Part shown: piece by piece, positions 9,236 through 59,291 of the stretch
Layout of the letters: each line of letters starts with the position of its first letter
How positions within the stretch are numbered: the first letter of the stretch is position 1
Source of the DNA: an uncultured archaeon
GTDB taxonomy: Archaea > Asgardarchaeota > Lokiarchaeia > Sigyniarchaeales > SOKP01
Direction of reading: 5' to 3'
DNA: 64,000 nucleotides
NCBI GenBank assembly: GCA_964486045.1
Contig: CAZALK010000007.1
Coordinates: 128,001 to 192,000 of the forward strand
The notes under the pieces: generated by a model
What the model saw: only the letters and a program-made list of their open reading frames with translations
Databases searched by the model: none
Told to the model about the DNA's origin: nothing
Position numbers and translations under genes: made by a program

Positions 9236-9502
9236 ATGGCTAAAAAGAAAGCTCCTGCAAAAAAGAAGTCTGAAGGATATATTGCCAAAAACGTCTAAAA
9301 TCTATTTTTTCGTTGGTATGCTCCAATCCGCAGGCTTATGAAAAAAGAGGGTGCAGATTTAGTAGCAGCTGAAGCCCTTGATAAGCTAATTGGCTTCTTA
9401 GAAGGCAGTGCAGCGACGGCAACAAAGGAAGCTATAAAAGTCTGTAAAGAGGATAAGCGCAAGAGAGTAACTGCCGCAGATATTCGCGCCGCAACCCGCT
9501 AA
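9236..9502 (+). CDS. Archaeal histone with lysine-rich N-terminal tail; join(9236..9289,9320..9502), 78 aa after splicing
   Basis: GGAGG SD then ATG; spliced product MAKKKAPAKKKSEGYIAKAPIRRLMKKEGADLVAAEALDKLIGFLEGSAATATKEAIKVCKEDKRKRVTAADIRAATR has histone-fold motifs (APIRRLMK..GA..V; KRKRVTAADI); missed by ORF track because of in-frame TAA at 9296. Confidence 0.92.
9290..9319 (+). other. Putative BHB/BHL-type pre-mRNA intron in histone gene (30 nt)
   Basis: GCCA-[AA^A]-ACG...CGT-TGGT-[AT^G]: 4-bp central helix GCCA/TGGT, 3-nt bulges, inner helix ACG/CGT; carries in-frame TAA; excision gives GYIAK|APIRR. Confidence 0.8.
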
Positions 9503-57710: not shown

Positions 57711-59291
57711 TTAAATTCTTTCAATAACCATACCACCCAATCTAATAGGACCACCTGTAGCGTTGTATATTTTTTCTGCTTTTCTCAATTTAGATTCACT
57801 TTGGGAATAGATTCTAAACACTAGATCTCCTTTCTTAATTTTTGCTCCTTGTTTTTTTATAATTTCTACGCCAGACATCTTGGAACTTGGACATCCCGCA
57901 GTTTTTGCTATTTGGTTGATTATTGAATTATTCACTTCAACTATATAACCGTCTTTTTTAGCAAAAAATTCTTTTAGACTTGGACCAATTTCAATATCTT
58001 CTGGCTTAACATTGGGATTTCCCCCTTGGATTTCGATGATTTTTTTCATTTTTTCATAAGCCTTACCGGAATGTAAAATATCTTTTGCTAAGGTTTGACC
58101 TTCACCTTTTTGAGCTTTTCCACTCATTTCGAGAATCATTCCAGCTAAATCGGTGGATTTTTCTATTAAGGAATTAGGTCCAGCTTTGTAATCTCTAAGC
58201 AATATCAAAGCCTCTCTAGCTTCTAAGGCAGGTCCAACAGCATGTCCTATAGGTTGGTGAGCTAATGTTAGTGCACATTCTGATTCAATACCTACATTAG
58301 CTGCGATTTCTTTAAATAAATAAGCGAATTGTTTTCCATTCTCTGGAGTTGGAAATTTAGTACCTTCTCCAACAGGAATATCAAGAACCAGTTTTTTAAC
58401 ACCCAATGAAAGTTTTTTAGTGAGAATTGAAGGTATCATAAGACCCACAGGATCCATATGTAGGGGACGCTCAATTTCAATTAGGACATTATCTGCGGGA
58501 GCTGTTTCAAGCGCCCCACCCCAAATTATACATGCATTTTCTTTGGAAACAATCTCATTTAAGTCGTGGGGGTTAAAAGCAACTGGTGCAAGAACTTCCA
58601 TAGAATCTGCCGTTCCTGATGGTGATGTTATAGCTCTCGTCGAAGACTTTGGTATAGTTAAACCCGCTGCTGCAACAATTGGGACAATAATGAGAGAAAC
58701 TTTATTACCAGGGACGCCACCGTTCAGCAAAAATTACTAACTGTAAATTTTTGTACTGTGTTTATCAAACACATCCATCCCAAAATAAAATATTTCCCCA
58801 CTTCTAGTTTCTGCTAATGTCAGAGCAGTCATTTCCTCGTTGTCCATCCCATTAATTGAAACTCCTGTTATAAATGCTGCCAGATCAATTCTAGATAATG
58901 ATCCAGATACAGCGTCAGATACTATACTGTTTATTTCTTCACTTGAAAGTTTTTGTCCTTTAATCTTCTTTTTAATATGCCTGAAAGAATCTGGAGGTTC
59001 AGCAGGTTTTACTGAAACAATCGTCTCATTTTTTAAACTCTTTTTTTCTCGTAAAATATCTAGAAAGATCCCAATTTCCCCAGAATCTACGACTGAGTTT
59101 GAGTAATCTATTTGGATAATAGCTGTCCAAAATTTATCCTCTAAAGATCGTGATTTGATATTTTTAATAAAAATACGTTCTCCTGCTTTTTGTCCTAATT
59201 CTTGAGCATCTTTAACATTTAACACAACATCTCTTGTATTTCCAGTTTCAAAATTTATTTCTTTTACTTTCAGTTTCATATTTTCAACCAA
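57711..59291 (-). CDS. AMP phosphorylase (thymidine phosphorylase family); join(58753..59291,57711..58722), ~516 aa after splicing
   Basis: Two same-frame ORFs give ..FDKHST / GGVPGNKVSL..PKSSTRAITSPSGTADSMEVL..APAD..QPIG..VGPALEA; separated by a 30-nt stop-containing insert. Confidence 0.92.
58723..58752 (-). other. Putative BHB/BHL-type pre-mRNA intron in AMP phosphorylase (30 nt)
   Basis: Minus strand CAGT-[AC^A]-AAAATTTAC-agtta-GTAATTTTT-GCTG-[AA^C]: central helix CAGT/GCTG, 8/9-bp inner helix, in-frame TAG TAA; excision yields CAC AGT ACC GGT GGC = HSTGG. Confidence 0.85.

What the first reader, a model, noticed from the sequence alone, without database searches (positions are those of the whole stretch)
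58723..58752. Second BHB-type mRNA intron, inside the DKHSTGG motif of AMP phosphorylase
Seen in sequence: minus-strand codons read D K H S T K I Y S * * F L L N G G V P G N K, so the two ORF-track halves share a frame. The insert folds CAGT-[ACA]-AAAATTTAC/GTAATTTTT-GCTG-[AAC]. Cutting after the second nucleotide of each bulge joins AC+C into ACC (Thr) and restores DKHSTGGVPGNK, the conserved phosphate-binding motif of thymidine/AMP phosphorylases. The cut falls mid-codon yet regenerates the motif residue. A 10-codon insert with two stops in this motif would otherwise kill the enzyme, yet both halves look intact. Inference: a functional spliced intron.
Basis: partly seen in the sequence, partly recalled or inferred. 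Interest (0 to 1): 0.93.

Follow-up and report, generated by a model that had tools for sequence, protein, structure and literature searches.

The report
tRNA-type intron splitting Asgard AMP phosphorylase
A 30-base hairpin with two stop codons interrupts the phosphate-binding motif of the AMP phosphorylase gene in an Asgard archaeon; its conserved, co-varying shape across 34 species is the one cut by the tRNA-splicing enzyme, so the messenger RNA very probably has to be spliced before the enzyme can be made.

Summary
On the minus strand, 58752..58723 is a 30-nt insert with in-frame TAG TAA inside DKHST|GGVPGNK of an AMP phosphorylase (TIGR03327: positions 1-165 before the insert, 167-500 after it).

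The insert is real DNA. Contigs from four runs in three studies span it without gaps.

The same codon is interrupted in 34 species of 10 genera of one Promethearchaeota (Asgard, Loki-lineage by earlier notes) family. The inserts are 29, 30 or 31 nt long. Excision after the second nucleotide of each bulge restores an intact ~512-aa frame in all 34. The 35 orthologues fetched without the insert read DKHSTGG uninterrupted.

The proposed fold holds: a 4-bp helix between two 3-nt bulges, plus a 9-bp inner stem. 98% of cells are paired, 10 of 13 pairs show compensatory changes, and exon wobble bases co-vary with intron bases.

Both exons are under strong purifying selection (dN/dS 0.03-0.12, dS above 1). 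The genome encodes two EndA subunits, one close to the Aeropyrum catalytic subunit across its specificity-loop region, and RtcB.

No outer exon helix forms, so the motif is the relaxed type. No RNA data were available, so splicing is inferred and not observed.

The only published precedent I found for a coding sequence is crenarchaeal cbf5. This scan has already noted similar introns on other Asgard DNA. This genome has more, including in rpoA1 and an EF-2-like gene.

The parts
58753..59279 (-). Exon 1 of AMP phosphorylase. It runs from ATG 59279 (MKLKVK...) to the first two bases (AC) of the Thr codon in DKHST.
   Evidence: translation. Pfam Glycos_trans_3N. NCBIfam TIGR03327 positions 1-165. 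The MKLKVK start is conserved in orthologues.
58723..58752 (-). 30-nt intron, reading AAAAATTTACAGTTAGTAATTTTTGCTGAA on the minus strand, with in-frame TAG TAA.
   Evidence: An insert sits at the identical site in 34 species. It is absent from the 35 fetched orthologues that lack it.
57711..58722 (-). Exon 2. It runs from the third base of the Thr codon (C 58722), then GGVPGNK..., to the stop codon.
   Evidence: Pfam Glycos_transf_3 and PYNP_C. TIGR03327 positions 167-500.
58755..58758 (-). Central helix, 5' strand (CAGT). This is exon sequence: the wobble base of His CAC plus Ser AGT.
   Evidence: Paired in 34 of 34 sequences. Pair 17-51 is U-A in 25 and C-G in 9.
58752..58754 (-). 5' bulge ACA. 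The predicted cut lies between 58753 and 58752.
   Evidence: Geometry. The cut position is inferred from the canonical EndA rule and from frame restoration.
58729..58751 (-). Inner hairpin h': a 9-bp stem (one U.U mismatch in this species) with the 5-nt loop AGTTA.
   Evidence: 97% of cells paired. 8 of 9 pairs have changes on both sides.
58725..58728 (-). Central helix, 3' strand (GCTG). This is intron sequence.
   Evidence: A relative in runs X3 and X4 carries T58755C, which turns the U-G pair with G58728 into C-G.
58722..58724 (-). 3' bulge AAC. The predicted cut lies between 58723 and 58722. C 58722 becomes the wobble base of Thr.
   Evidence: The joined codon is ACC, ACT, ACA or ACG (always Thr) in 34 of 34.

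Best explanation
The 30 nt at 58752..58723 (minus strand) are a bulge-helix-bulge intron in the pre-mRNA of AMP phosphorylase.

Proposed mechanism: the last bases of exon 1 (CAGT) pair with the 3' end of the intron (GCUG) to form the 4-bp central helix. A 3-nt bulge lies 3' of that helix on each strand, and a 9-bp intron hairpin stacks on it. The heteromeric (alpha-beta)2-type splicing endonuclease cuts after the second nucleotide of each bulge, and RtcB joins the exons. This recreates an ACC Thr codon and the phosphate-binding motif DKHSTGGVPGNK. Unspliced mRNA stops at UAG UAA and can only yield a truncated N-terminal fragment.

Shown here: the insert, its conservation, the co-varying structure, intact and selected exons, and the enzyme genes. 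Inferred: that EndA is the nuclease, the exact cut positions, and that splicing occurs in cells.

The intron is old. It is spread across one family, most simply by one gain followed by repeated exact losses.
For: 1. The insert is real DNA. Contigs of runs X1 and X2, and of close relatives in two other studies (X3, X4), span it with no gap. It is also present in 34 independent assemblies.
2. The site is the same in all 34 species of 10 genera. Lengths are 30 nt (29 species), 29 nt (2) and 31 nt (3). The length difference lies in the loop. With 29 or 31 nt the exons are in different frames, yet exact excision gives an intact ~512-aa ORF in every case.
3. The structure co-varies. On alignment A2, 98.0% of cells are paired against 86% when shuffled and 29-49% when the partner is slid. 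10 of 13 pairs change on both sides. The central helix is 100% paired. Pair 17-51 switches between U-A (25) and C-G (9), linking the His wobble base to an intron base.
4. Intron-bearing genes always use AGY for Ser (34 of 34). Intron-less orthologues use TCN in 14 of 35.
5. Exons are under selection: dN/dS is 0.03-0.12 in both, with dS above 1. The intron is 81% identical between species, where four-fold sites are 44% identical.
6. TIGR03327 AMP_phos matches positions 1-165 and 167-500 across the junction.
7. The machinery is encoded: two EndA paralogues and RtcB. The best PDB match of one EndA paralogue is the Aeropyrum pernix catalytic subunit. The alignment runs through the stretch that, from my memory, is the Crenarchaea-specific loop, including its KPR. 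Asgard EndA is described as (alpha-beta)2 with the L1 insert that gives broad specificity (PMC5829648).
8. The same 4+3+9+5+9+4+3 architecture interrupts other genes of this genome at points where Pfam profiles are contiguous or nearly so. One is rpoA1 (RNA_pol_Rpb1_1 positions 2-73 then 74-312). Another is a thiolase.
Against: No RNA data exist for this organism in the runs offered, so excision has not been seen.

No outer exon-exon helix closes the 3' bulge. The motif is therefore the relaxed HBh' type and not the strict hBHBh' type.

Single-sequence thermodynamics gives no support. The MFE fold keeps the inner hairpin but not the 4-bp central helix, and the z-score is +0.30.

Cuts after the third bulge nucleotide would restore the protein equally well, so the exact cut register is not fixed by the protein.

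In this species the inner stem has one U.U mismatch.
Confidence: 0.85

Rival explanations
1. Programmed translational bypass. The ribosome takes off before the stop codons and lands after the hairpin, as in phage T4 gene 60 or the mitochondrial 'byp' elements. A full-length protein would be made without RNA splicing.
For: A stable hairpin with a stop codon close to the break resembles bypass elements. In most other genera a stop follows ACA directly. Bypass does not depend on frame, so 29-31-nt lengths are compatible with it. In many species of this genus AAA follows ACA and AAA also precedes GGN.
Against: Matched take-off and landing codons are not general. This window ends the gap with AAC, and others end it with ATT, ACT, AAT or AAG. 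In the other genera ACA is followed by a stop, not by AAA. AAA-to-AAA hopping would also add a Lys inside DKHSTGG. Bypass gives no reason for the 4-bp exon-intron helix, which is 100% paired with C-G to U-A switches, or for the fixed 3-nt bulges.
Confidence: 0.04
2. Split gene. The two halves are made as separate polypeptides, the second starting at a TTG inside the insert, and they assemble into an active enzyme.
For: Both halves are long open frames in this window, and a TTG lies at 58730. Both halves are under purifying selection.
Against: The break lies inside the phosphate-binding loop. I saw no Shine-Dalgarno-like sequence in the AT-only hairpin by eye. The candidate start codon would lie within the conserved stem and helix. 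This reading does not explain the covariation, the near-fixed length or the BHB geometry. The 35 fetched orthologues that lack the insert are single uninterrupted genes.
Confidence: 0.04
3. The insert is removed from the RNA, but by machinery other than EndA and RtcB, such as another structure-specific nuclease and ligase, or self-cleavage.
For: Removal is required by the genetics, but the enzyme is only inferred. The outer helix of the strict motif is missing.
Against: The geometry is exactly what EndA needs: a 4-bp helix, 3-nt bulges on opposite strands, and cuts after the second bulge nucleotide that give the correct frame. EndA subunits and RtcB are encoded, and one EndA subunit aligns with the Aeropyrum catalytic subunit through the stretch I recall as its specificity loop. 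A 30-nt AT-rich hairpin has no known ribozyme fold.
Confidence: 0.05
4. A pseudogene or an assembly artefact.
For: There are two in-frame stops in an essential motif.
Against: Contigs from three studies carry the insert, as do 34 assemblies. dN/dS is 0.03-0.12 with saturated dS. No frameshift or other stop occurs in any of the 34 spliced ORFs. The insert is far better conserved than four-fold sites.
Confidence: 0.01

Closest known systems
cbf5 pre-mRNA intron of Crenarchaeota (Aeropyrum, Sulfolobales, Desulfurococcales; Watanabe 2002, Yoshinari 2006, Yokobori 2009 = PMC2738675)
   Same: A short intron inside a protein-coding sequence, often with the relaxed cleavage motif. It interrupts a functionally critical codon or motif. 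The hosts have heteromeric EndA. The distribution is patchy and is explained by gain and secondary exact loss.
   Different: The gene differs (AMP phosphorylase rather than cbf5) and so does the phylum (Promethearchaeota/Asgard). Here the length is near-uniform at 29-31 nt. The intron is one of several of the same architecture in one genome. Splicing of cbf5 was shown experimentally, whereas here it is inferred.
Non-canonical archaeal tRNA introns with the relaxed HBh' motif (Marck and Grosjean 2003; EndA with Crenarchaea-specific/L1 loop, PMC5829648)
   Same: A 4-bp central helix, 3-nt bulges, an intron hairpin h' and no closing outer helix. Cleavage depends on (alpha-beta)2 or epsilon2 EndA, which have broad specificity.
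   Different: The substrate is an mRNA coding region with no tRNA body. The exon strand of the helix is made of codon bases, so protein coding and RNA pairing constrain the same nucleotides.
BHB intron in the 5' UTR of Haloferax volcanii HVO_1309 mRNA (PMC7714728)
   Same: An mRNA processed by the splicing endonuclease, confirmed in vitro.
   Different: That intron is in the untranslated leader and does not interrupt the reading frame. The host is a euryarchaeon with homodimeric EndA.
Translational bypass elements (T4 gene 60; mitochondrial byps)
   Same: A short insert carrying stops and a hairpin, within an otherwise intact gene.
   Different: There are no matched take-off and landing codons, and an exon-intron helix co-varies.

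Membership tests
Archaeal bulge-helix-bulge (EndA-spliced) intron | [quoted passage not shown] | tested here: met
   The central helix is paired in 34 of 34 sequences. Bulges are 3 nt in all. C-G to U-A switches occur.
Archaeal bulge-helix-bulge (EndA-spliced) intron | Intron-side helix h' adjoining the motif | tested here: met
   A 9-bp stem with 97% of cells paired. 8 of 9 pairs change on both sides.
Archaeal bulge-helix-bulge (EndA-spliced) intron | Outer exon-exon helix h closing the second bulge (strict hBHBh' form) | tested here: not met
   The bases before CAGT (..AAACA) and after the 3' bulge (GGTGG..) do not pair in any of the 34 sequences. It is therefore the relaxed HBh' class.
Archaeal bulge-helix-bulge (EndA-spliced) intron | Cuts after the second nucleotide of each bulge give a functional product | tested here: met
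   This restores Thr and an intact ~512-aa frame in 34 of 34, including the 29- and 31-nt introns. Cuts after the third nucleotide would also work, so the register is not unique.
Archaeal bulge-helix-bulge (EndA-spliced) intron | The host encodes a splicing endonuclease able to cut relaxed motifs, plus an RNA ligase | tested here: met
   EndA paralogues lie at G000 C7:36262-36867 and C10:136871-137473, and RtcB at C1:512216-513523. The first aligns to A. pernix 3P1Z_B across the stretch that holds its KPR; that this stretch is the specificity loop is from my memory. The activity itself was not tested.
Archaeal bulge-helix-bulge (EndA-spliced) intron | Excision and exon ligation observed in RNA | not testable with these tools
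   No RNA holder was listed. An exact spliced-junction pattern was not found in metagenome contigs.
AMP phosphorylase (NCBIfam TIGR03327, equivalog) | Full-length match above the 535-bit cut-off | tested here: inconclusive
   The halves score 112.3 bits (profile 1-165) and 446.9 bits (profile 167-500). Their simple sum, 559, exceeds the cut-off, but the joined protein was not scored as one sequence.
Programmed translational bypass element | Identical take-off and landing codons flanking the gap | tested here: not met
   In this window the flanking codons are ACA and AAC. No general match exists across the 34 sequences.

The most novel reading that the evidence does not exclude
This family of Asgard archaea may run a genome-wide mRNA-splicing programme that depends on the tRNA endonuclease. 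Near-uniform ~30-nt mini-introns of one architecture (4-bp helix, 3-nt bulges, 9-bp stem, 5-nt loop) sit inside the most conserved catalytic motifs of genes. The cases seen include rpoA1 (GHFGH|IELA) and an EF-2-like GTPase (AH|IDHGKTT). They also include a histone, a thiolase and AMP phosphorylase (DKHST|GG). On this reading the introns persist for family-level time spans and are lost by exact deletion many times, as by recombination with spliced RNA or cDNA. Gene expression in the closest prokaryotic relatives of eukaryotes would then already depend on removing intervening sequences from mRNA.
Probability: 0.5. Interest if true: 0.9.

Novelty: new member of a known kind. Interest (0 to 1): 0.8.

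Why it matters
In the papers I could search, endonuclease-spliced introns inside archaeal coding sequences are documented for one gene only, cbf5 in Crenarchaeota (PMC7714728, PMC2738675). I found no paper describing them in Asgard archaea.

This case is unusually well supported by comparison. There are 34 species, length variants that change the frame, and exon wobble bases that co-vary with intron bases.

It shows that codon choice in an enzyme's active-site motif can be constrained by RNA pairing. It also shows that gene callers will split such genes or label them pseudogenes.

Together with the other introns of this genome, it makes a question testable: does mRNA splicing, and a delay between transcription and translation, exist in the archaeal lineage nearest to eukaryotes?

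Tried and rejected
RNA evidence. The look-up of sequencing runs listed no RNA holder. Read laying could therefore only show DNA contigs.

Spliced junction in metagenomes. An exact search for GATAAACACAGTACCGGTGGCGTCCCTGG in metagenome contigs found nothing.

Single-sequence folding. The MFE fold of 71 nt gave z = +0.30 and did not form the central helix. It is not informative for a protein-recognised motif.

Genome-wide census by structure plus ORF joining.
- The loose version gave 4483 real hits against 5742 mirror-repeat null hits, so it was useless.
- The strict 30-nt architecture gave 27 against 20, so counts from it cannot be trusted.
- Only candidates with Pfam support across or beside the junction were kept.

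tRNA scan of the window: none found.

Short open frames (419-431 aa) in genus g12. I suspected a second intron, but these genes simply lack the N-terminal ~90 residues.

A monophyletic origin of the intron-bearing genes was rejected (p-AU 3e-8 for the first 7). This led to the reading of one gain followed by many losses.

Neighbouring genes (an LRR protein, an M24 peptidase and a TPR protein) show no link to the AMP pathway.

Full report
**Observation.** It gives D K H S T K I Y S * * F L L N G G V P G N K. The two ORF-track halves, 59291..58737 and 58730..57711, are in one frame. The fold can be drawn as stated:
- CAGT (58758-58755) pairs with GCTG (58728-58725).
- The 5' bulge is ACA (58754-58752).
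- The stem is AAAATTTAC / GTAATTTTT around the loop AGTTA.
- The 3' bulge is AAC (58724-58722).

Cutting after the second nucleotide of each bulge removes 58752..58723 (30 nt). This joins AC+C into a Thr codon.

**The gene.** The part before the insert matches Pfam Glycos_trans_3N. The part after it matches Glycos_transf_3 and PYNP_C. Against NCBIfam the two parts match the AMP phosphorylase equivalog TIGR03327 at profile positions 1-165 and 167-500. They are therefore contiguous except for the split Thr. The scores are 112.3 and 446.9 bits against a cut-off of 535. The neighbours are an LRR protein, an M24 peptidase and a TPR protein, which are unrelated to the AMP pathway. Relatives carry record titles such as 'Promethearchaeota archaeon' and 'Promethearchaeia archaeon', so the host is an Asgard archaeon. 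The window has about 31% G+C.

**The insert is real DNA.** Logan contigs of run X1 (possibly the source) and X2 (another sample of the same study) cover 58300-59200 without a gap, at word depths 274 and 72. Contigs of about 95%-identical relatives in two other studies also span the insert without gaps (X3, 765 nt laid; X4, 391 nt). One of their differences, T58755C on the minus strand, turns the U-G pair of the central helix into C-G.

**Distribution.**
- Among the 46 orthologues found in 54 genomes of the genus, 20 carry an insert at the identical codon. All 20 are 30 nt, and all contain at least one in-frame stop.
- Across the order (154 genomes), 14 further orthologues in nine other genera of the same family showed the same truncated open frame. 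After fetching them, all 14 had an insert of 29, 30 or 31 nt at the same codon.
- The totals are 29 introns of 30 nt, two of 29 nt and three of 31 nt. The length difference lies in the hairpin loop.
- With 29 or 31 nt the two exons lie in different frames. Even so, exact excision yields an intact ~510-546-aa frame with VYDKHSTGGVPGNK in every case.
- The 35 fetched orthologues without an insert read DKHSTGG uninterrupted.

**RNA structure.**
- 98.0% of cells form a standard pair. The figure is 85.8% after shuffling partners (0 of 500 shuffles reach the observed value) and 29-49% when partners are slid by 1-3 columns.
- 10 of 13 pairs have changes on both sides.
- The 4-bp central helix is paired in all 34 sequences.
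- Its first pair is U-A in 25 sequences and C-G in 9. The wobble base of the His codon (CAY, exon) therefore changes together with the last base of GCUR/GUUA (intron).
- The stem sequence can be wholly different while the shape is unchanged, for example UAUAUUGAA/UUCAAUAUA in L065.

The exon side is also constrained. Ser is AGY in 34 of 34 intron-bearing genes, but TCN in 14 of 35 intron-less ones. These sequences are related, so the counts are not independent events. The number of distinct compensatory pair types (24 further types) is still high.

**Selection.** Among the first seven intron-bearing species, dN/dS is 0.03-0.12 in both exons, while dS is 0.95 to above 2, which is saturated. Over the same pairs the intron is 81% identical on average, where four-fold degenerate sites are 44% identical. 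The gene is therefore functional on both sides of the insert, and the insert itself is under constraint. This excludes a decaying pseudogene.

**History.** On a protein tree of 49 orthologues, the intron-bearing genes do not form one clade. At least 10 changes are needed, and 6 are forced by well-supported branches. Holding the first seven together is rejected with p-AU 3e-8. The insert occupies the same site with the same architecture in ten genera. The simplest history is therefore one ancient gain in the family followed by many exact losses. That pattern was also proposed for cbf5 (PMC2738675). Recombination between species cannot be excluded.

**Machinery.** The genome encodes two EndA paralogues of about 200 aa and RtcB.
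- One paralogue is most similar to the catalytic subunit of the Aeropyrum pernix heterotetramer (3P1Z_B, E = 1.4e-33). The alignment runs through a stretch where both proteins share KPR.
- From my own memory, not tested here, that stretch is the Crenarchaea-specific loop, and its Lys is the residue needed for cutting relaxed motifs.
- Published work reports that Asgard EndA is (alpha-beta)2 with this L1 insert (PMC5829648).

This matters because no outer exon-exon helix can be drawn here. The motif is the relaxed HBh' type.

**Other introns of the same build.** A structure-plus-ORF census of the genome was too noisy to count introns. The strict version gave 27 hits against 20 with a mirror-repeat null. 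Several 30-nt hits with the same 4+3+9+5+9+4+3 layout do interrupt genes where Pfam profiles fit the junction:

| Gene | Place in G000 | Pfam fit at the junction |
|---|---|---|
| rpoA1 (GHFGH\|IELARPV) | C13:44101-44130 | RNA_pol_Rpb1_1 positions 2-73, then 74-312 |
| EF-2-like GTPase (AH\|IDHGKTT) | C13:92018-92047 | GTP_EFTU resumes at profile position 12; the 34-aa upstream part has no match |
| Thiolase | C3:186175-186204 | Thiolase_N positions 1-89, then 94-258 |
| AIR-synthase-family protein | C5:195271-195300 | Upstream part has no match; downstream part matches AIRS (positions 43-97) and AIRS_C |
| AIR-synthase-family protein | C1:759271-759300 | AIRS, then AIRS_C |

The histone gene at 9236-9502 of this window has a 30-nt insert at 9290-9319 with the same geometry (lead). 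An RNA polymerase catalytic subunit cannot be a pseudogene. The organism must therefore remove such inserts.

**Rivals.**
- Translational bypass would tolerate 29-31 nt. It lacks matched take-off and landing codons across the set, and it gives no role to the exon-intron helix.
- A split enzyme made of two polypeptides would break the phosphate-binding loop. It also does not explain the RNA covariation.
- Removal by an unknown nuclease is possible, but the geometry and the cut register are those of EndA.
- Artefact and pseudogene readings are contradicted.

**Comparison with what is known.** In the searchable literature, BHB introns in archaeal mRNAs are limited to two cases. One is the cbf5 coding sequence of Crenarchaeota. 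The other is the 5' UTR of Haloferax HVO_1309 (PMC7714728; PMC2738675). A 2026 preprint treats Asgard tRNA introns only. I found no paper on Asgard mRNA introns. Earlier notes of this scan report similar mini-introns in other Asgard genomes and in other genes of this genome. I treated those notes as leads and not as evidence. This finding is therefore a new member of a known kind, in a new phylum and a new gene, with unusually strong comparative support.

**Limits.** No RNA run holds this organism, and an exact spliced-junction search in metagenome contigs was blank. Splicing, the enzyme responsible and the exact cut positions therefore remain inferred. Cuts after the second or the third bulge nucleotide give the same protein.

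Noticed in passing
window 9290-9319 (+), histone gene 9236-9502: A 30-nt insert with an in-frame TAA splits a lysine-tailed histone gene (..YIAK|APIRRLMK..). Its geometry matches this finding: helix GCCA/UGGU, bulges AAA and AUG, cuts after the second bulge nucleotide. This is the 'first' intron of the window.
   Followed up: partly
G000 C13:44101-44130 (L054:241-270): A 30-nt BHB-shaped insert in rpoA1 between GHFGH and IELARPV. Pfam RNA_pol_Rpb1_1 matches positions 2-73 before it and 74-312 after it. This is an essential gene that has to be repaired at the RNA level.
   Followed up: partly
G000 C13:92018-92047 (L055:103-132): A 30-nt BHB-shaped insert inside the P-loop (AH|IDHGKTT) of an EF-2-like translational GTPase. 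GTP_EFTU resumes at profile position 12 right after it.
   Followed up: partly
G000 C3:186175-186204 (L056), C5:195271-195300 (L057), C1:759271-759300 (L058): Further 30-nt inserts of the same architecture, in a thiolase (Thiolase_N 1-89 then 94-258) and in two AIR-synthase-family proteins.
   Followed up: partly
all of the above: The inserts sit in the most conserved catalytic or nucleotide-binding motifs (DKHST|GG, GHFGH|IELA, AH|IDHGKTT, CASGM|DA). This may be ascertainment, or it may be a real site preference like that of inteins and homing introns.
   Followed up: no
L060-L072 (other genera of the family): In most other genera a stop codon (TAA, TAG or TGA) follows the Thr codon ACA directly at the 5' splice site. 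Unspliced mRNA would terminate at once there.
   Followed up: no
L073-L076 (genus g12): The AMP phosphorylase orthologues of one genus lack the N-terminal ~90 residues and start near MSSYDYILKK. This is not an intron.
   Followed up: partly
G000 C7:192030-192059 (30-59 nt beyond the window's end): Another 30-nt candidate (helix TCCT/AGGA, stem 7 pairs) joins open frames of 144 and 447 codons. It was not checked for homology.
   Followed up: no
genus-wide: 8 of 54 genomes of the genus gave no AMP phosphorylase match at E <= 1e-100 with this query, some of them at 92-95% completeness. The gene may be dispensable or unassembled in those genomes.
   Followed up: no
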